From a virus (taxonomy: Duplodnaviria > Heunggongvirae > Uroviricota > Caudoviricetes), in IMG/VR virus record IMGVR_UViG_2619619132_000004: a DNA stretch of 19,407 bases. One strand, written 5' to 3'. The first letter of the stretch is position 1. Each line of letters begins with the position of its first letter. A program made the position numbers and the translations under genes. Below are positions 1 through 17,114 of the stretch, piece after piece. Below the pieces are notes generated by a model that searched no databases, was not told the origin of the DNA, and was given only the letters and a program-made list of their open reading frames with translations.

Positions 1-199
1 CACCGTATACCTTGTGATTTTCATCGTATACGCGCTGTATCTCTTTCTTCAGCCAGTCATCGCGCTGCGCACGGGCACTGCGTTTATCCGGATGATGTCG
101 CTGTTGCTGACAGTGGTAATACGTTGACGGGGCAATATGTAGTTCACTGCATACCGGTCCGACCCCGTACAGCTTACGCAGCTTATCCAGCAGTGGCAT
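1..199 (-). CDS. IS3-family transposase OrfB, N-terminal fragment (continues beyond window)
   Basis: Minus-strand translation from ATG at 199: [66 protein letters not shown], typical IS3-family OrfB N-terminus. Start overlaps the orfA stop. Confidence 0.8.
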   Translation of the reverse strand, partial: MPLLDKLRKLYGVGPVCSELHIAPSTYYHCQQQRHHPDKRSARAQRDDWLKKEIQRVYDENHKVYG

Positions 200-525
200 C
201 ACTTTTTCCAGAGGCGGTCGAACTCCGCCTTCGCAAAATAAGCGGAAGCCTGGCGAAGGATATCGTTACTGCGGCGCAGTTCACGATTTTCACGTTCCAG
301 CTCTTTCAGACGCTGACGTTCAGCGGTGGTGAGCCCTCCATCACCGCCCCCGGTATCCCGCTCATGCTGGCGAACCCAGACACGCAGAGTCTCCGGCGTA
401 CAGCCAATCTTTGGAGCAATGGAACAAATTGTCGCCCATTGTGAGTCATATTCGCTCTGACTTTCCAGAACCATACGGACTGCCCGTTGACGGACTTCGG
501 GGGAAAAACGAGTATTTTTAGTCAT
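199..525 (-). CDS. IS3-family transposase OrfA (HTH plus leucine-zipper, 108 aa)
   Basis: ORF track protein [19 protein letters not shown]...[39 protein letters not shown], recognised as IS629/IS3-family OrfA. Confidence 0.85.
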
Positions 526-576
526 CCTGTTTACCTCTTTCTCAGGAAGTTTAGTCTCCAGGATTCCCGGGGCGGT

Positions 577-2013
577 TCAGTTTTCCCTGGCTTTATTGAG
601 TTCCTCCCTCAGTTCCTGGTATTTCGTTTCTACAGATGAGACATTTTCCAGTGATTGCGTGTCCTCATTATGTTTAACTGGAATTTCTTCCACTGATTCA
701 GGCGCTGCCTGTTCATTAGCCATTGTGTCCGATGTTTGTTGCTTTTCTTCATCGCCATGTTTTCCTTCTGCTGTTCCGCGCTGCGGCATCGGTGCTGATG
801 AGCGACCGCAGGCAATTTCCACGATTTCCGGATCCGGGTTAGCGTGATCGGTTTCGGTCAACACTTTGTTGAGATATTCAGTCACGCGTGCCGGGATGGC
901 CTCAATGCCGATTGGTGCTTCTTTCACGGAAGCCACCACAATGGCGCGGGAATAATCCAGCCCACCGGGCATGGCGATAAATTTGTCGCGAAAAACAGAA
1001 AAGGGCGGCTTATTCTCTGACACGATTTCTTCAACGCGTTTTGCGTGTGCTGGGTGCAGGTTATAAATATCCACATCCATTGAACGGGCCAGAACGCCGG
1101 TGGCTACATCTCGTGCGAGTGATGTCTTATCATGTTTGAATCCTTCACCACGATCGGTAATATTTCCGCCGCCAGCGTTAGCACCGGAAGGCGTACGGGT
1201 AATGCCTGAAACATAATTTCCGTTCTGCCATTCTTTTGTCAGCAGGCCCTGATCAAGGTAGTCAGTTTTCATCCAGGTGGAAATGAACTTGTCGAATTCA
1301 GCCGGGCTGATGCGATGATTTGCAGAGTGGGGGAATGCTTTCCCTACAGATTCAGCCAGGCGACTAAGGTGATAGTTCGTCAGTTTATCCAGTTCATGAT
1401 GCGCGGCGCGCACAGCAGTAAGCAGGCTCTGAAGGTAACTGTCCTCTGTGTCCATCTCCATACGGATCACGTTATTGCGTTGTTCTGGTGTGGCATGATG
1501 CCGGTATTTTCCATCTTCATCTTTGCTGAATAAGAAGAGGTGAAGGAAGCGATGAGTAAGGCTCAGAGTGGCGACGGGAATTTCACACTCAGAACAGTCA
1601 TCGTCGCTGTCCGGGGATTCGTTTTTCTCCACATCATCCGGAATAGTTCCGTCCGGGTCATCGTTGTCATCGCCAGCAGTTGTGGCATCTTCACCGTTGA
1701 TGTTGTCATTGAAGGGTATAGCCATCATGGTGATGCCATCTTCCCCGCCTTTTTCATAGCGGTTGCAGAATTCAGTATCAAACACGCCTTCCGGTGGAAG
1801 GTCATTCACGACGGGGAAATTTACGCGAACGGGTTTTTTGAAATCATCCTCGTCGTAGCCTGCATCGTCCATGGCTGCAATGCAGCGGGAAACTGCGACA
1901 GAAAGTTTTCTGGCATCAGCCCAGAAAAAACCGCCTTTGATGCCAAGGCGTTTTCTGACTTTATCGTTTTTTGCTTCGCAGTGTAGTGCAAAAGTCTGTT
2001 TATCAGCGCTCAT
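577..2013 (-). CDS. recE: Exodeoxyribonuclease VIII (RecE)-like protein, N-terminal about 478 aa only; 3' end replaced by IS terminus
   Basis: Long stretches match Rac RecE as I recall it (NFPVVNDLP; [16 protein letters not shown]; [16 protein letters not shown]; [11 protein letters not shown]; YQELRxEL). The stop codon is the terminal TGA of the IS at 577..579, so the nuclease domain expected downstream is absent. RBS GAGG upstream of ATG at 2013. Confidence 0.7.
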
Positions 2014-10624: not shown

Positions 10625-10704
10625 TCTGGCCTGAAGCCTTTGCAATTACAGGCGTTGCTATAGCTATTGATTTTTTAGTATATGTTATTTGTCGGTGGGG
10701 GTAA
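10621..10704 (+). CDS. Possible small hydrophobic peptide (27 aa)
   Basis: ATG overlapping the upstream stop (ATGA); MIWPEAFAITGVAIAIDFLVYVICRWG; single predicted transmembrane helix. Confidence 0.25.
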   Translation: MIWPEAFAITGVAIAIDFLVYVICRWG

Positions 10705-10739
10705 AAACGTTCGCCGGGATTAACACCAAAGGAGGGAAT

Positions 10740-10844
10740 ATGTCGGATGATATATCACTGGCAATGGAAGGTGCGCTGGCTGTTATTGCTGTTGTGGGCG
10801 TTTACTGCCTGGTTGTGTTTTTGATGGATCGACTAGGGAACTGA
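10740..10844 (+). CDS. Possible small hydrophobic peptide (34 aa)
   Basis: AAGGAGGG RBS before ATG 10740; MSDDISLAMEGALAVIAVVGVYCLVVFLMDRLGN. Confidence 0.3.
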   Translation: MSDDISLAMEGALAVIAVVGVYCLVVFLMDRLGN

Positions 10845-10984
10845 ATTCATTACGATATGGGAATTCCCATATCGGGTAAAAACGGTTTGCGGTAAAGCGA
10901 GAGTTAAGCAGAATTGCTGCGGGTGCTTGAGGCTGTCTGCCTCGGGCATGCCACCGTAAGGCAGACAGAGAAAAACCCCAGTTA

Positions 10985-11050
10985 ACATTACGCGTCCTGC
11001 AAGACGCCTAACATTAATCTGAGGCCAATTTCATGCTAGACACATGTAGG
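10985..11050 (-). ncRNA. Sok-like antisense RNA (type I antitoxin); approximate position
   Basis: Placed by analogy with hok/sok loci, antisense to the mok start and hok leader. Boundaries not determined from sequence. Confidence 0.35.
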
Positions 11051-11245
11051 TTAGCCTCTTACGCGCCGAAAGGCAAGGAGAAGCAGGCTATGAAGCAGCA
11101 AAAGGCGATGTTAGTCGCCCTGATCGTCATCTGTATTACCGTCGTAGTGACGGCACTGGTAACGAGGAAAGACCTCTGCGAGGTACGAATCCGAACCGGT
11201 CAGACGGAGGTTGCTGTCTTCACAGCTTACAAACCTGAGGAGTAA
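11033..11245 (+). CDS. mok-like overlapping reading frame (in frame with and containing hok)
   Basis: ORF track 11033..11245 begins upstream of hok in the same frame, as in hok/sok loci. Confidence 0.5.
   Translation: MLDTCRLASYAPKGKEKQAMKQQKAMLVALIVICITVVVTALVTRKDLCEVRIRTGQTEVAVFTAYKPEE
11090..11245 (+). CDS. hok: Hok/Gef-family type I toxin (51 aa)
   Basis: MKQQKAMLVALIVICITVVVTALVTRKDLCEVRIRTGQTEVAVFTAYKPEE matches Hok (transmembrane helix then RKxLCEVRIxxGxTEVAAF). Leader 10921..10968 resembles the R1 hok mRNA 5' end; the 5' element UGCGGGUG (10918..10925) is complementary to the 3' element CACCCGCA (11303..11310). Confidence 0.85.
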   Translation: MKQQKAMLVALIVICITVVVTALVTRKDLCEVRIRTGQTEVAVFTAYKPEE

Positions 11246-11313
11246 GAGACCAGGCGAGGGAGAAATCCCTCGCCACCTCTGATGTGTCAGGCATCCTCAA
11301 CGCACCCGCACTT

Positions 11314-11336
11314 AACCCGCTTCGGCGGGTTTTTTC
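11314..11336 (+). terminator. Rho-independent terminator of the hok mRNA (CCCGC-UUCG-GCGGG then U7)
   Basis: GC stem with UUCG tetraloop and T-run. Confidence 0.8.
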
Positions 11337-11454
11337 ACGTACTGTGGTTGTGAATACGATTGGTATTAGGCTATGCTAACAACATTAGCCTGACTAATTT
11401 TGTATTGACTTGATTTTTGTTAAAGAACAGGACGGAGAAGTAAGGGTACACCCA

Positions 11455-11634
11455 ATGAGCTACGCACTAAAAAAACACCCGCGATTGACTATTCCCCCTC
11501 GCGATAAAAGCGTTGTGGCAGCTCCGCGCCCGGCTATCGATGAAAATTGCACTCATCGTGAGCAGGTGAAAAATGCTTTCGATTTCGGTTTTTCTCGTTA
11601 CGAGAAGGCAATGGAAGAACTTTCAAAAGTGTAA
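11455..11634 (+). CDS. Small protein upstream of the Doc-family toxin; putative cognate antitoxin (unclassified, 59 aa)
   Basis: ATG 11455; stop 18 bp before the toxin start; no similarity to Phd noticed. Confidence 0.45.
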   Translation: MSYALKKHPRLTIPPRDKSVVAAPRPAIDENCTHREQVKNAFDFGFSRYEKAMEELSKV

Positions 11635-11652
11635 TGATGGGTATTGTGCTCT

Positions 11653-12138
11653 ATGGCTGAGATTGTTGAAGGAGTGCACTACCTTTCGTTTGATGATCTT
11701 ACCGAAATTAATCGCCTTTTAATTGAGCTTCAAACACCAGATGAACCTGTTAGTGTGCTGAGTGTTGATAATTTAAGTTCTTCTCAGTCTCGTCCCAGCA
11801 TGGTTCGATGGTATGAACAGACTAATGACATGTTTGTACTGGCATCAGTATTGATTGAAAGTCTGATTCAGAATCATCCATTTGCTAATGCAAACAAACG
11901 AACAGCTATGATGGCTGGTTATGTCTTCTTGTTGTTGAATGGCTATGAGTTAACAGCACCAGGCGATGAAATCGTGGAAATGGCAGAGGGACTGGCCTGC
12001 AAAACCTATACTCGAGAAGATCTCGAGAACTGGTTGTGTTATTGGTCTCGTGCGTATGACAGCCGGGAATTATGTAAAACAGGCGCAACTATTGTTTTGT
12101 ATGAAACTATCAAGCTTAAAATAGAACAGCAAAACTAA
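11653..12138 (+). CDS. Fic/Doc-family protein with Doc-type motif HPFANANKR (putative toxin, 162 aa)
   Basis: Motif HxFx(D/N)(A/G)NKR present as HPFANANKRTAMMAG; followed by a terminator at 12156..12178. Confidence 0.7.
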   Translation: MAEIVEGVHYLSFDDLTEINRLLIELQTPDEPVSVLSVDNLSSSQSRPSMVRWYEQTNDMFVLASVLIESLIQNHPFANANKRTAMMAGYVFLLLNGYELTAPGDEIVEMAEGLACKTYTREDLENWLCYWSRAYDSRELCKTGATIVLYETIKLKIEQQN

Positions 12139-12188: not shown

Positions 12189-12506
12189 TCATGATATTAC
12201 TTGGATCCCGTTTTTCTCTACGACTGAAAGAAGGCGAAGAGCGGCACCTCCCGGCCGTTTTACACCACGTTCCCAGTCTGATATCAGGTTTTTACTGACG
12301 TTGAGGTATCTGGCAAAAACAGGTTGAGACAGATGCTCTCGTTCGCGCAGTGCACGGATCCTTTCCGGAGACATTACCGGCGCTGGCTGGAGACAAGTTT
12401 CATCGAATTCTCGCATAGTCTGTTTCGTTACTGCGCCGATATCATGAAGCGATTCCATCATTTCATGTACGGATGCAAGCGCATCACTGCGGTAATTTTT
12501 ACTCAT
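12189..12506 (-). CDS. HTH (XRE-like) antitoxin of a HigB-2/HigA-2-type toxin-antitoxin pair (105 aa)
   Basis: GGAGG RBS before ATG 12506; C-terminal HTH segment; immediately downstream of the toxin gene on the same strand. Confidence 0.65.
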   Translation of the reverse strand: MSKNYRSDALASVHEMMESLHDIGAVTKQTMREFDETCLQPAPVMSPERIRALREREHLSQPVFARYLNVSKNLISDWERGVKRPGGAALRLLSVVEKNGIQVIS

Positions 12507-12560
12507 TGGGTACCTCCGTAAACTGACCCTGTAGAATCAGTTGTGCCAGTTGTTCATCTG

Positions 12561-12869
12561 TTAGATTGAGTACGTGAGGAGCCCCTTCCGAAATGCACTT
12601 TCCTCAGTAGCGGTTATATTTTCACGTTCATTTTTTGCGTATGCATATACGAAAAAGGCCCTTGTGCCGACGCGATAGAAAATGATTGTGCGATAACCGC
12701 CAGATTTGCCGCCACCGACTCGTGGCAGACGTTGCTTGATAACGCCGTTACCCAGGTTTGCTGAGATAAGCCCGTTATCAGCCTGTTTAACAATTTCGCG
12801 CAGTGACTGGTCGGATATTTTGTTTTTGTGTGCAAATCGCTCAAACCAGGCGTTTTTAAAAATGCGCAT
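12561..12869 (-). CDS. RelE/HigB-2-like toxin (102 aa)
   Basis: Motifs GGGKSGGYRTIIFYR and FVYAYAKNERENI resemble Vibrio HigB-2 (GKRGGSRIIYYF...YGKNEMSDL); toxin-first operon order. Confidence 0.65.
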   Translation of the reverse strand: MRIFKNAWFERFAHKNKISDQSLREIVKQADNGLISANLGNGVIKQRLPRVGGGKSGGYRTIIFYRVGTRAFFVYAYAKNERENITATEESAFRKGLLTYSI

Positions 12870-12973: not shown

Positions 12974-13056
12974 ACGCCAGCAAAATCTGGCGTCGGGATT
13001 AGGAACCCCGGATAGAAACCGCGACAGAGACACGCCGCGAGCGTGTTTTTTATTGT
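12974..13056 (+). ncRNA. Candidate small RNA or attenuated leader (about 80 nt) ending at an intrinsic terminator
   Basis: No ORF; 5' hairpin CGCCAG-CAAAAT-CTGGCG (12973..12990); terminator ACACGC-CGCGA-GCGTGT then U6 (13030..13051); downstream of the promoter at 12938. Confidence 0.4.
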
Positions 13057-13214
13057 CGTATGCACACGCACATCTGAATTATGGTGGGGCGTATAGGGGA
13101 GCTGAAAAGCTCGCCGGTTGGTTTCCCGGTAGTTCCTAACCCTGTACGTCTCGCCACCCGATGATTAGGAACCTGACGGTGGTGATAGTTTAGAAACCAC
13201 TCGAGGGCGTCATT

Positions 13215-13886
13215 ATGACAACTCAAGTTTCTGTTGAAACACTCTCCACGATTACTTACAAGCAGATCCCCGTTATCACTACCGAACTTTTGGCGCACCT
13301 TTACGGCACAGAAGCTATTCGTATTCGCCAGAATCACCACGAAAACAAAGGTCGTTTCATTGAGGAAAAACACTTCTTCAAACTTGAAGGTGAAACTTTA
13401 CGTGAGTTCAAGCACAGAGTAGCTTTTAACTACTCTGTGAAAATTGCCCGTAACGTTCGCTCCCTCATCCTATGGACAGAACGCGGCGCAGCCCGTCACG
13501 CAAAAATGCTCGAAACTGATCAGGCGTGGGAGGTATTCGAAAAACTGGAAGACTGCTATTTCAGCCAGGGAAAAACAGCACCAACCGAACAGCAGCCGCA
13601 GATTCAGCCACAATTCACAGCCGAAGAAATCATCCTCCTTTGCTACATGCAGCTCTGGATGGAAAAAGCCCAGGACCTCAGCAAACACCTGTATCCCATT
13701 ATGAAAGAGCTGAACTCCTCATACACGAACAAGCTGTATGACATTGCGTTTGAGACCATCTACATGGTGACGAAGAACAGAGACGCGCTACTAAGGGAGG
13801 TAACACGTCTCGACATGTCAAGTTCCATTATCCAGCGGGCCATGCCAATGCTGAAAAGCCTGCGGGCAAGACAATTTGAATTCTGA
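13215..13886 (+). CDS. ORF6N-domain antirepressor-like protein (223 aa)
   Basis: GAGGG RBS; N-terminal region resembles ORF6N/Ant-type antirepressors of lambdoid prophages; own terminator downstream. Confidence 0.6.
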   Translation: MTTQVSVETLSTITYKQIPVITTELLAHLYGTEAIRIRQNHHENKGRFIEEKHFFKLEGETLREFKHRVAFNYSVKIARNVRSLILWTERGAARHAKMLETDQAWEVFEKLEDCYFSQGKTAPTEQQPQIQPQFTAEEIILLCYMQLWMEKAQDLSKHLYPIMKELNSSYTNKLYDIAFETIYMVTKNRDALLREVTRLDMSSSIIQRAMPMLKSLRARQFEF

Positions 13887-16851: not shown

Positions 16852-17114
16852 TATCCGTTCAACGGGAATGTTACATACCTCACAATTAAGTCAGTTGAAT
16901 GTTGTCTGCCCGGATGAGAATTTGTTAGAAAAAACTGCATGGTGAATCCCCCTGAGCGGAGGGGCGACTGGTGACGGTATAATCTCTGATTATCAAAACG
17001 AGAATGACGCGGGTTTAGTGGCACCGGGCTGAACTCACCGGGAGGCACCCGGCACCATGCAATGGCACATAGCGCCACTCTCCAGCCCCTCTCCGGAGGG
17101 GCTTTCTTATGGAC

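What the first reader, a model, noticed from the sequence alone, without database searches (positions are those of the whole stretch)
10918..11336. Complete hok/sok-type locus with long-range 5'/3' complementarity
The Hok protein is clear, and the leader (GGGTGCTTGAGGCTGTCTGCCTC...) resembles the R1 hok mRNA 5' end. The 5' element UGCGGGUG (10918..10925) is exactly complementary to CACCCGCA (11303..11310) just before the terminator, as expected for the fold-back structure that keeps full-length hok mRNA inactive. A 10 bp stem hairpin sits at 10933..10968.
Basis: partly seen in the sequence, partly recalled or inferred. Interest (0 to 1): 0.5.

Follow-up and report, generated by a model that had tools for sequence, protein, structure and literature searches.

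The report
Ordinary prophage hok/sok toxin–antitoxin locus
This is a complete, textbook hok/sok (hokD/hokW-type) type I toxin–antitoxin cassette sitting in an E. coli lambdoid prophage; it is already annotated in near-identical genomes, so it is real but ordinary.

Summary
The Hok ORF, the R1-like leader, the 10-bp hairpin and the 5'/3' complementarity are all at the stated coordinates, and Rfam's sok model matches at 110 bits. The locus is 99.8% identical to an annotated Hok locus in E. coli TOE17. [quoted passage not shown] The exact Hok protein occurs on 198 public contigs.

One correction. The conserved, covarying fold-back is GGGUGCUUGAGG (10921-10932) paired with CCUCAA(C)GCACCC (11295-11307). 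It is 12 bp with one bulge, and is kept in all 53 distinct homologues with compensatory changes.

All other canonical parts are present:
- a metastable 5' hairpin, with coupled covariation
- ucb/SD-mok sequestration
- dcb
- a mok frame
- a 71-nt Sok hairpin RNA with its promoter
- a 3' protective hairpin and a terminator

Two rare substitutions in this copy might attenuate it: C instead of T at the first base of the hok -10 box, and G to A in ucb. Expression was not testable. Novelty: already known.

The parts
10886..10914 (+). Inferred hok/mok promoter. The -10 hexamer is CAGAAT at 10909-10914. A weak -35-like TTTGCG lies at 10886-10891 (17-nt spacer).
   Evidence: The hexamer lies at a fixed distance (6 nt) upstream of GGG in 109 homologous loci. 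It reads TAGAAT/TATAAT/TATATT etc., with T at position 1 in 106 of 109; the window and L002 have C. The consensus scanner did not flag it, so it is inferred from conservation and position only.
10921..11336 (+). Full-length hok (mok-hok) mRNA, about 416 nt. The 5' end is inferred at G10921 and the 3' end at the terminator U-run.
   Evidence: The Rfam model starts at 10921, 7 nt after the -10 hexamer. MFE is -174.3 kcal/mol, z = -6.7 against shuffles. This structure is 90.3% paired across 53 homologues, against 35-43% when the partners are slid, with 43 pairs changed on both sides.
10921..10932 (+). tac (translational activator) element, GGGUGCUUGAGG. It pairs with fbi in the full-length mRNA.
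   Evidence: MFE pairing. The helix is 93% paired; alignment column 4/404 reads U-A in 40 and C-G in 11 sequences. Duplex energies are -15 to -24 kcal/mol in all 53 homologues.
10923..10949 (+). Metastable 5' hairpin of the nascent transcript. RNA nt 3-13 pair with nt 19-29, which sequesters tac during transcription.
   Evidence: It is the MFE structure of the first 35-55 nt. It is 97.8% paired in 53 homologues, with 4 pairs changed on both sides. Column 4/29 reads U-A in 40 and C-G in 12 sequences, coupled with the 4/404 change.
10933..10968 (+).
   Evidence: Exact inverted repeat (I2). Present in the MFE fold. In the alignment it is helix 2: 90% paired, 5 pairs with changes on both sides.
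10975..11026 (+). ucb / SD-mok stem-loop. ucb (A)CCCC at 10975-10979 sequesters the mok Shine-Dalgarno GAGG at 11021-11024. This is the sense copy of the Sok hairpin. It carries a 17-nt apical hairpin insert relative to R1.
   Evidence: Helix 4 is 94.7% paired, with 6 pairs changed on both sides. The insert is visible in the Rfam alignment and in the alignment with the R1-type locus. The ucb G is A in this copy; this occurs in 3 of 111 loci.
10971..11041 (-). Sok antisense RNA, about 71 nt. It has a 15-nt single-stranded 5' tail complementary to the mok start region, a long hairpin and a U-tail.
   Evidence: Coordinates are transferred from the sokW misc_RNA annotated in phage 933W. The fold is -28.8 kcal/mol, z = -5.4, with an unpaired 5' tail. 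sokW RNA was detected by northern blot and shown to be antitoxic in Sp5 (PMC8621323). Not shown for this copy.
11048..11076 (-). Inferred Sok promoter. On the minus strand, -35 is TTGCCT (11076-11071), the spacer is 17 nt, and -10 is TAACCT (11053-11048). The start is near 11041.
   Evidence: The sequence is conserved in homologues. The 'pro-less' sokW mutant of PMC8621323 changes TAGGTTA to CCGGCTC at the equivalent site; I deduced this from primers YO-421/422 and the Fig. 1E legend. The consensus scanner did not flag it.
11033..11245 (+). mok reading frame. It is 70 codons and here in frame with hok, so it is an N-terminally extended Hok.
   Evidence: ORF list. The ATG is conserved in 53 of 53 homologues, but the frame relative to hok varies: in frame in 43, +1 overlapping in 5, and a 19-codon uORF ending in ATGA at the hok start in 5. 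This fits a role for mok translation rather than for the Mok product.
11056..11060 (+). dcb (GCCUC). It is complementary to SD-mok (GAGGC, 11021-11025) in the truncated mRNA. In the full-length fold it pairs with GUAAGAG at 11243-11249.
   Evidence: SD-mok/dcb is 100% pairable and invariant in 53 homologues, so it gives no covariation evidence. Helix 8 of the full-length fold is 98% paired. The role is assigned by analogy to R1 (PMC9841398).
11090..11245 (+). hok toxin gene, 51 aa: MKQQKAMLVALIVICITVVVTALVTRKDLCEVRIRTGQTEVAVFTAYKPEE. SD AAGGAG at 11075-11080.
   Evidence: Pfam PF01848 E = 5.6e-24. The exact protein is found on 198 public contigs, named a Hok family toxin, in a cluster named HokD.
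11253..11274 (+). GC-rich 3' hairpin (GGCGAGGGA / TCCCTCGCC). It is the presumed protective end of the 3'-processed (truncated, active) mRNA.
   Evidence: Exact inverted repeat (I4). Helix 18 is 97.8% paired, with 5 pairs changed on both sides. The role is assigned by analogy to R1, where mutations in the last stem-loop of Tr-hok abolish function (PMC9841398).
11295..11307 (+). fbi (fold-back inhibitory) element, CCUCAA(C)GCACCC, with C11301 bulged.
11315..11335 (+). Intrinsic terminator-like hairpin: ACCCGC-UUCG-GCGGGU with a U-run at 11330-11335.
   Evidence: It forms in the MFE fold and is conserved in most E. coli phage copies. The terminator scanner did not list it. It is absent in 933W and in distant homologues, so the 3' end is inferred.

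Best explanation
This is a hok/sok-family type I toxin–antitoxin cassette of the hokD/hokW subtype. It lies in the nin region of an E. coli lambdoid prophage.

Inferred mechanism, by homology to plasmid R1 hok/sok and Sp5 hokW/sokW:
1. A weak promoter makes a stable mRNA of about 416 nt starting at G10921.
2. While the mRNA is being made, its 5' end folds into a metastable hairpin.
3. When complete, the 5' tac element (10921-10932) pairs with the 3' fbi element (11295-11307). This locks a compact fold in which the mok Shine-Dalgarno (11021-11024) is sequestered by ucb, and the Sok target around the mok start is buried. The full-length mRNA is therefore neither translated nor bound by Sok.
4. 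Slow 3' trimming back to the hairpin at 11253-11274 removes fbi. tac then pairs with ucb, the mok SD opens, and mok translation drives hok translation.
5. As long as the unstable 71-nt antisense Sok RNA (11041 to 10971, minus strand) is made, it pairs with the mok start region and the duplex is destroyed. In the relatives this involves RNase III, partly aided by Hfq.
6. When Sok synthesis stops, through loss of the element or through prophage induction, the 51-aa Hok inserts in the inner membrane and kills or pre-lyses the cell.

Shown here: every sequence and structure element, and its conservation and covariation. Inferred: the transcript ends, the processing, expression, and the biological role (prophage stabilisation or help with lysis at induction).
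For: - Rfam RF01794 matches 10921-11095 over the full model, 110.3 bits, E = 1e-24. The same model scores 113.5 bits on 933W hokW and 88.9 bits on an R1-type IncF hok.
- Hok Pfam E = 5.6e-24.
- The locus is 99.8% identical over 466 nt to a RefSeq-annotated Hok locus in E. coli TOE17. Related loci occur in 4717 of 5426 complete E. coli genomes.
- It is 90.7% identical to hokW/mokW/sokW of phage 933W, which is annotated with a 71-nt SokW.
- The MFE fold has the 5'/3' end-pairing, z = -6.7.
- The full-length structure is 90.3% paired in 53 distinct homologues (Escherichia, Kluyvera, Citrobacter, Photorhabdus, Erwinia, Pantoea), against about 40% when slid. 43 pairs have double changes, reached by 0 of 500 shuffles.
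- tac/fbi is maintained in all 53, with GGGUGC/GCACCC changing to GGGCGC/GCGCCC and GAGG/CCUC to GAAG/CUUC.
- The metastable hairpin is 97.8% paired, with coupled covariation at nt 4.
- tac/ucb and SD-mok/dcb are 99.5% pairable.
- The mok ATG is conserved in 53 of 53 while its frame varies.
- The Sok fold has a free 5' tail, a hairpin and a U-tail, z = -5.4.
- Experiments on the 90.7%-identical hokW/sokW show toxicity, Sok antitoxicity, partial RNase III/Hfq dependence, loss of sokW RNA and appearance of HokW on induction (PMC8621323).
- The R1 model of tac/fbi/ucb/dcb is described in PMC9841398.
Against: - No expression data exist for this copy.
- The generic scanner flagged neither promoter nor the terminator. 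Both promoters match the sigma-70 consensus poorly.
- This copy has C instead of the near-universal T at position 1 of the hok -10 hexamer. It shares this only with L002 among 109 loci.
- It has A instead of G in ucb (3 of 111 loci). That breaks the C6-G pair of the tac/ucb stem and one pair at the base of the SD-sequestering stem. The copy could therefore be attenuated or mis-regulated.
- The MFE fold of a 3'-truncated RNA did not spontaneously give the tac/ucb structure.
- tac/ucb and SD/dcb are invariant, so covariation gives them no independent support.
- The neighbouring recE is interrupted by an IS3-family element, so the prophage may be defective.
Confidence: 0.93

Rival explanations
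1. The locus is structurally complete but functionally decayed or attenuated, as are most chromosomal hok loci of E. coli K-12. The hok promoter is weakened (CAGAAT) and the activating tac/ucb stem is weakened (ucb G to A), so little or no Hok can be made.
For: The first base of the -10 hexamer is T in 106 of 109 homologous loci but C here. The ucb G is conserved in 107 of 111 loci but is A here, and this breaks the otherwise invariant C6-G57 pair. In R1, single substitutions that break tac-stem pairs abolish toxicity (PMC9841398). The prophage carries an IS3-family insertion in recE.
Against: The hok and mok ORFs, both SDs, tac/fbi, the Sok hairpin and the Sok promoter elements are all intact. 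The exact Hok protein is on 198 contigs, so it is not a one-off pseudogene. The ucb change is a tolerated G·U in the Sok strand. In R1, substitutions at the equivalent G71 were not among the loss-of-function mutants. Each variant also occurs in other natural copies (L002; L043/L045).
Confidence: 0.2
2. It is only a solitary hok toxin gene without a working Sok or leader, like hokD (relF) at the end of the relBE operon in the K-12 Qin prophage. On this view the long-range complementarity is coincidental.
For: RefSeq annotates only the Hok CDS at identical loci, with no sok or mok feature. Near-identical copies are named hokD. An 8-mer long-range inverted repeat alone occurs in 23% of shuffles.
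Against: The full 170-nt leader matches the Rfam model end to end. The Sok hairpin, the promoter elements and the mok start are present and conserved. The end-pairing covaries across genera.
Confidence: 0.03
3. The cassette is the same, but its main role is different. Rather than stabilising the prophage by post-segregational killing, it acts at prophage induction to speed lysis and phage release, or as an abortive-infection defence against other phages.
For: For hokW/sokW of Sp5, sokW RNA disappears and HokW appears on RecA-dependent induction, and deletion halves phage release (PMC8621323). The same paper cites R1 hok/sok reducing T4 plating. The locus sits among other toxin–antitoxin modules in the nin region: Doc at 11644-12138, and a RelE/HTH pair at 12189-12869.
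Against: No PADLOC defence model matches Hok or its neighbours. Nothing in the sequence discriminates between the roles. This prophage may be defective (IS3 in recE).
Confidence: 0.4

Closest known systems
hokW/mokW/sokW of Stx2 phage 933W and Sakai prophage Sp5 (E. coli O157:H7)
   Same: It is 90.7% identical over 438 nt and has the same gene order. mok is in frame with hok. Sok is 71 nt and carries the extra apical hairpin. The Sok -10 box is the same (TAACCT). It has the same tac, fbi, ucb and dcb, and it sits in a lambdoid prophage.
   Different: The Hok C-terminus differs...VFTAYKPEE here...VFVDYESEK in 933W. The Sok 5' recognition tail differs at several positions: GUCUAGCAUGAAAUUGGCC here, GUUCAGCAUGGAUUGAGCC in 933W. 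The position in the prophage differs: the nin region here, near attR beyond the tail genes in 933W. This copy has a hairpin terminator after fbi that 933W lacks. It also has the CAGAAT -10 box and the ucb A.
hokD (relF) of E. coli, as named by RefSeq/PGAP
   Same: The Hok protein is in the 90% cluster named HokD. Loci 99.1% identical in O104:H4 strains are annotated hokD.
   Different: From my own knowledge, not tested here: the K-12 Qin hokD copy lacks the upstream mok/sok regulatory leader, whereas this copy has the complete leader.
hok/sok (parB) of plasmid R1 and IncF plasmids
   Same: The architecture is the same element for element: tac-like 5' end GGCGCUUGAGGCUUUCUGCCUC, ucb AGCCCC, SD-mok GAGG, dcb GCCUC within the Sok promoter, hok SD AAGGAG, a GC-rich 3' hairpin, then fbi followed by a terminator. 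The same Rfam family matches.
   Different: HokW is reported as 44% identical to R1 Hok (PMC8621323). mok is in the +1 frame in R1 but in frame here. The Sok hairpin is 17 nt longer here. The 5' hairpin loop is shorter here. R1 is on a plasmid; this locus is in a prophage.
hokC (gef)/mokC/sokC-type chromosomal loci
   Same: They belong to the same family. Loci L011, L015 and L016 (HokC-like...EVHIRTGQTEVAVFTAYESE) align over the whole mRNA with the same tac/fbi.
   Different: They lack the 17-nt insert in the Sok hairpin and are about 75% identical.

Membership tests
hok/sok type I toxin–antitoxin family | Small (about 50 aa) Hok/Gef membrane toxin, Pfam PF01848 | tested here: met
   The 51-aa ORF at 11090-11245 gives HOK_GEF E = 5.6e-24, 83.9 bits against a cutoff of 22.
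hok/sok type I toxin–antitoxin family | Conserved structured 5' leader / Sok-target RNA (Rfam RF01794) | tested here: met
   110.3 bits against a gathering score of 59, model positions 1-157 of 157, at 10921-11095 on the + strand. The model matches the hok-sense strand; the Sok RNA proper is the complement of its middle part.
hok/sok type I toxin–antitoxin family | Overlapping upstream mok reading frame, with its own SD, whose translation is needed for hok translation | tested here: met
   mok ATG at 11033, with GAGG 8 nt upstream. The ATG is conserved in 53 of 53 homologues while the frame varies. The coupling itself is not testable here.
hok/sok type I toxin–antitoxin family | 5' tac / 3' fbi end-pairing of the full-length mRNA, supported by covariation | tested here: met
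   10921-10932 pairs with 11295-11307 in the MFE fold. The helix is 93% paired, with U-A changing to C-G at column 4/404. It is maintained in all 53 homologues.
hok/sok type I toxin–antitoxin family | Metastable 5' hairpin sequestering tac in the nascent transcript (coupled covariation) | tested here: met
   97.8% paired, with 4 pairs changed on both sides. nt 4 covaries with both partners (together).
hok/sok type I toxin–antitoxin family | ucb sequesters SD-mok in the full-length form; tac/ucb and SD-mok/dcb pair in the truncated form | tested here: inconclusive
   The ucb/SD stem is 94.7% paired, with 6 covarying pairs. tac/ucb and SD/dcb are pairable in 99.5% of cells but are invariant, so they are uninformative. 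This copy breaks one tac/ucb pair (ucb G to A). The MFE fold of the truncated RNA did not show the switch.
hok/sok type I toxin–antitoxin family | Short cis-antisense Sok RNA with its own promoter, a free 5' tail, a hairpin and a U-tail, complementary to the mok translation initiation region | tested here: met
   The sequence features are met. There is a 71-nt hairpin RNA with z = -5.4, at the position annotated as sokW in 933W. The -10 box is at the site mutated in the sokW pro-less construct. Transcription itself was not tested.
hok/sok type I toxin–antitoxin family | Slow 3' processing of hok mRNA, short Sok half-life and RNase III cleavage of the duplex | not testable with these tools
   This needs northern blots or rifampicin chase experiments. 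It has been shown for R1 and partly for hokW.
hokD/hokW subtype (lambdoid prophage copies) | High nucleotide identity over the whole cassette, including the 17-nt Sok hairpin insert, with a prophage context | tested here: met
   Identity is 90.7-99.8% to annotated hokW and hokD loci. The insert is present. The flanks are a DUF551 gene, Doc, ninB, ninE, rusA and Q.

The most novel reading that the evidence does not exclude
There are two possibilities, and neither is excluded.

(a) This copy is a naturally re-tuned hok/sok. Among about 110 sampled loci it alone combines a weakened hok -10 box (CAGAAT) with a ucb G-to-A change. That change creates an A·C mismatch in hok mRNA, in both the SD-sequestering stem and the activating tac stem, but only a G·U pair in Sok.

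(b) Among closely related prophage copies, the most variable stretch within the transcript is the Sok 5'-tail / mok-start segment (11027-11047). It co-varies with its 3' partner (11285-11294). This suggests diversifying selection for mutually orthogonal hok/sok pairs in genomes that carry up to 9 copies.
Probability: 0.3. Interest if true: 0.3.

Novelty: already known. Interest (0 to 1): 0.1.

Why it matters
It matters little beyond correct annotation. RefSeq marks only the Hok CDS at identical loci, so the mok frame, the Sok RNA and the cis-regulatory elements mapped here add detail. The locus is a clean natural example of the end-pairing, metastable-hairpin logic of hok mRNAs. The covariation recovered from 53 homologues independently reproduces the published folding pathway. 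The two rare regulatory substitutions and the hypervariable Sok recognition segment are small, testable leads on how co-resident prophage toxin–antitoxin copies are tuned and kept from cross-talking.

Tried and rejected
- The consensus promoter/terminator scan of 10700-11500 flagged none of the hok promoter, the Sok promoter or the 11315-11335 terminator. The promoters match sigma-70 poorly, so they are placed by conservation and by the published sokW mutant instead.
- Folding a 3'-truncated RNA (10921-11282) did not reproduce the published tac/ucb 'open' structure. MFE prediction is evidently not adequate for that switch, so I tested pairability on the alignment instead.
- A first plasmid comparator (L122, Citrobacter IncF) has an R1-like Hok but no recognisable leader and no Rfam hit. 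I dropped it and replaced it with L123.
- L123 was found by searching an R1 hok sequence recalled from memory. That sequence proved 100% identical to IncF-plasmid records; 2661 records match at 99% identity or more.
- NCBIfam Hok models score below their curated cutoffs, so no equivalog name is assigned from them.
- PADLOC has no model matching Hok, the 59-aa ORF at 11455-11631, Doc or the 101-aa ORF at 12561-12866. Only the HTH protein at 12189-12503 gave weak generic HTH hits.
The 3' partners (11308-11310) are not conserved outside close relatives, while C10920 is conserved regardless. The -10 spacing points to G10921.
Full report
**What is in the sequence**

Window 10880-11345 contains a 51-aa ORF (11090-11245). 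It matches Pfam HOK_GEF at E = 5.6e-24. It is preceded in the same frame by a 19-codon extension starting at ATG 11033, which gives a 70-aa mok frame.

Rfam's only hok/sok model, RF01794 'sok', matches 10921-11095 on the + strand over all 157 model positions. The score is 110.3 bits against a gathering score of 59, with E = 1e-24. The model consensus begins GGGUGCUUGAGG and is 157 nt long. In practice it therefore describes the hok-mRNA leader that contains the Sok target. Sok itself is the complement of its central part.

- The leader motif is present.
- TGCGGGTG (10918-10925) and CACCCGCA (11303-11310) are complementary. The exact match is actually a 9-mer (I3).
- The 10-bp stem lies at 10933-10942 / 10959-10968 (I2).
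- The Hok ORF is clear.

**Is the 5'/3' complementarity more than chance?**

An exact long-range 8-mer is not significant on its own. 23% of dinucleotide shuffles of the 419-nt region contain at least one. What is significant is the longer, positioned helix. The MFE fold of 10921-11336 (-174.3 kcal/mol, z = -6.7) pairs RNA nt 1-12 (GGGUGCUUGAGG, 10921-10932) with CCUCAA(C)GCACCC (11295-11307). That is 12 bp with C11301 bulged, stacked on the 5' hairpin. The 5'-end duplex energy of -21.5 kcal/mol was reached by only 3 of 2000 shuffles of the 3' segment.

**Comparative test**

I collected 121 related loci:
- 39 from one-genome-per-species contigs
- 80 from viral contigs
- phage 933W
- E. coli TOE17

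I aligned 53 distinct full-length mRNAs as alignment A1. They come from Escherichia, Shigella, Kluyvera, Citrobacter, Photorhabdus, Erwinia and Pantoea.

The window's MFE structure is 90.3% paired over 6843 cells, against 35-43% when the 3' partners are slid by 1-3 columns. 43 pairs carry changes on both sides, which 0 of 500 shuffles reached. In the tac/fbi helix, column 4/404 is U-A in 40 sequences and C-G in 11.

Sequence by sequence, the first 13 nt and the last 16 nt form a duplex of -15 to -24 kcal/mol in all 53. GGGUGC/GCACCC changes to GGGCGC/GCGCCC in Photorhabdus, and GAGG/CCUC changes to GAAG/CUUC in Citrobacter.

- C10920 is conserved everywhere, but its would-be partner 11308 is G, T or A in distant homologues.
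- A conserved -10 hexamer sits exactly 6 nt upstream of GGG in 109 loci. This places the transcription start at G10921.

**Other canonical elements**

Names follow the R1 model as summarised in PMC9841398.

1. Metastable hairpin of the nascent transcript. RNA nt 3-13 pair with nt 19-29. It is the MFE of the first 35-55 nt and is 97.8% paired, with 4 double-change pairs. Column 4/29 switches U-A to C-G in the same sequences that switch 4/404. This reproduces the published 'coupled covariation'.
2. ucb/SD-mok stem. (A)CCCC at 10975-10979 pairs with GAGG at 11021-11024. It is 94.7% paired with 6 covarying pairs.
3. tac/ucb and SD-mok/dcb (GCCUC, 11056-11060) of the truncated form. They are pairable in 99.5% of cells but invariant, so covariation says nothing. 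The MFE of a truncated RNA did not show the switch.
4. GC-rich hairpin at 11253-11274. It is 97.8% paired with 5 covarying pairs. It corresponds to the protective terminal stem of the processed mRNA.
5. Hairpin plus U6 at 11315-11335, after fbi. An R1-type locus has the same arrangement of fbi followed by a terminator.
6. The mok ATG is conserved in 53 of 53 sequences, but its frame relative to hok varies. It is in frame in 43, +1 overlapping in 5, and a 19-codon uORF ending in ATGA in 5. This fits the view that mok translation matters, not the Mok protein.

**Sok**

Phage 933W annotates a 71-nt SokW. By alignment this maps to window 11041 down to 10971 on the minus strand. That RNA folds with a 15-nt free 5' tail, which covers the mok ATG and the spacer, followed by a long hairpin and a U-tail (-28.8 kcal/mol, z = -5.4).

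Upstream on the minus strand lie TTGCCT (11076-11071), a 17-nt spacer, and TAACCT (11053-11048). The 'pro-less' sokW mutant of Takada et al. changes exactly this heptamer on the + strand, TAGGTTA to CCGGCTC. I deduced this from primers YO-421/422 and the Fig. 1E legend.

That paper shows the following for the 90.7%-identical Sp5 locus:
- HokW is toxic.
- sokW RNA counteracts it, partly dependent on RNase III and Hfq.
- sokW RNA vanishes and HokW appears on RecA-dependent induction.
- Deletion halves phage release.

**Identity and context**

- It is 99.1% identical to O104:H4 loci annotated hokD.
- Related sequence occurs in 4717 of 5426 complete E. coli genomes, with a median of 2 and up to 9 places per genome.
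- The exact Hok protein is on 198 public contigs.
- The window as a whole is 98% identical over 91% of its length to a prophage of E. coli NCCP15648.
- It is collinear with the TOE17 prophage: recE, kilR, cI/cro/cII-like genes, replication genes, DUF551, hok, Doc, a RelE/HTH pair, ninB, ninE, rusA and Q.
- The cassette therefore lies in the nin region of a lambdoid prophage, in a run of toxin–antitoxin modules.
- I recalled the R1 hok sequence from memory. It proved 100% identical to IncF-plasmid records; 2661 records match at 99% identity or more. This gave a real reference (L123) for the element-by-element comparison.

**Peculiarities of this copy**

- The hok -10 hexamer is CAGAAT, whereas 106 of 109 loci have T at the first position. 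Only the window and TOE17 have C.
- The ucb G is A at 10975, seen in 3 of 111 loci. In hok mRNA this breaks the otherwise invariant C6-G pair of the tac/ucb stem and removes a pair at the base of the SD-sequestering stem. In Sok it is only a G·U pair.
- In R1, breaking tac-stem pairs abolishes toxicity. Substitutions of the equivalent G71 were not recovered as loss-of-function. The effect here is therefore open.
- I put the probability that this copy is functionally attenuated at about 0.2.

**Verdict**

This is a real, complete and well-understood hokD/hokW-type hok/sok cassette, and it is already known. Transcript ends, processing, expression and biological role remain inferred by homology.

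Noticed in passing
window 11027-11047 (and its 3' partner 11285-11294): Among 60 close (88% identity or more) prophage copies, the entropy peak inside the transcript falls on the mok start / Sok 5'-tail segment: 0.82 bits per site at 11030-11039, against 0.17 or less across the hok CDS. In the full-length fold this segment pairs with 11285-11294, and 7 of those 9 pairs show changes on both sides (helix 5). This may reflect diversification of Sok/hok recognition among co-resident copies.
   Followed up: partly
window 10909 and 10975: This copy has two rare regulatory substitutions. One is C at the first base of the hok -10 box (CAGAAT; T in 106 of 109 loci). The other is A instead of G in ucb (3 of 111 loci). 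Among the sampled loci only the window has both.
   Followed up: partly
window 10853-10874: A perfect 22-bp palindrome, CGATATGGGAA/TTCCCATATCG, with no spacer and an EcoRI site at its centre. It lies between the small upstream ORF (10689-10844) and the hok promoter (I1). It could be an operator, a terminator or a recombination site; its function is unknown.
   Followed up: no
window 11455-12138 and 12189-12869 (minus strand): Two further toxin–antitoxin-like modules lie directly downstream of hok/sok. The first is a 59-aa ORF plus a Doc/Fic toxin (TIGR01550 E = 1.4e-35; Pfam Fic). The second, on the minus strand, is an HTH antitoxin-like protein plus a protein annotated as a RelE/ParE toxin in TOE17. 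Together with hok/sok this makes three TA modules in about 2 kb of the nin region.
   Followed up: partly
window 12974-13051, 13077-13161, 13215-13886: There are Rfam hits to isrK (69 bits) and C4 antisense RNA (66 bits), directly followed by a 223-aa ORF annotated as ORF6N-domain in TOE17. This resembles a P1/P7-type c4–ant or Gifsy-type isrK–antirepressor immunity module inside a lambdoid prophage.
   Followed up: no
window 1-579 (ALIL pseudoknot 128-244, minus strand) and 577-2013: The end of an IS3-family element, with the ALIL frameshift pseudoknot at 116 bits, abuts a truncated recE-like ORF. Homology to related prophages starts only at 580. The prophage is therefore probably IS-disrupted.
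   Followed up: partly
window 16909-17114: There is a full-length Rfam hit to sRNA STnc100 (165 bits) just downstream of the Q antiterminator region and upstream of a 590-aa ORF annotated as DUF6645 in TOE17.
   Followed up: no
loci L011, L037, L038, L069, L104 vs window 11033-11092: In five homologues mok is a 19-codon uORF that ends in ATGA overlapping the hok start. In five others it is a +1-frame overlapping ORF, as in R1. In 43, including the window, it is in frame with hok. This is a neat natural experiment showing that only mok translation is conserved.
   Followed up: yes
L001 (phage 933W) 447-535: Rfam sRNA-Xcc1 (69 bits) hits upstream of the hokW region in 933W. It is not present in the window.
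   Followed up: no
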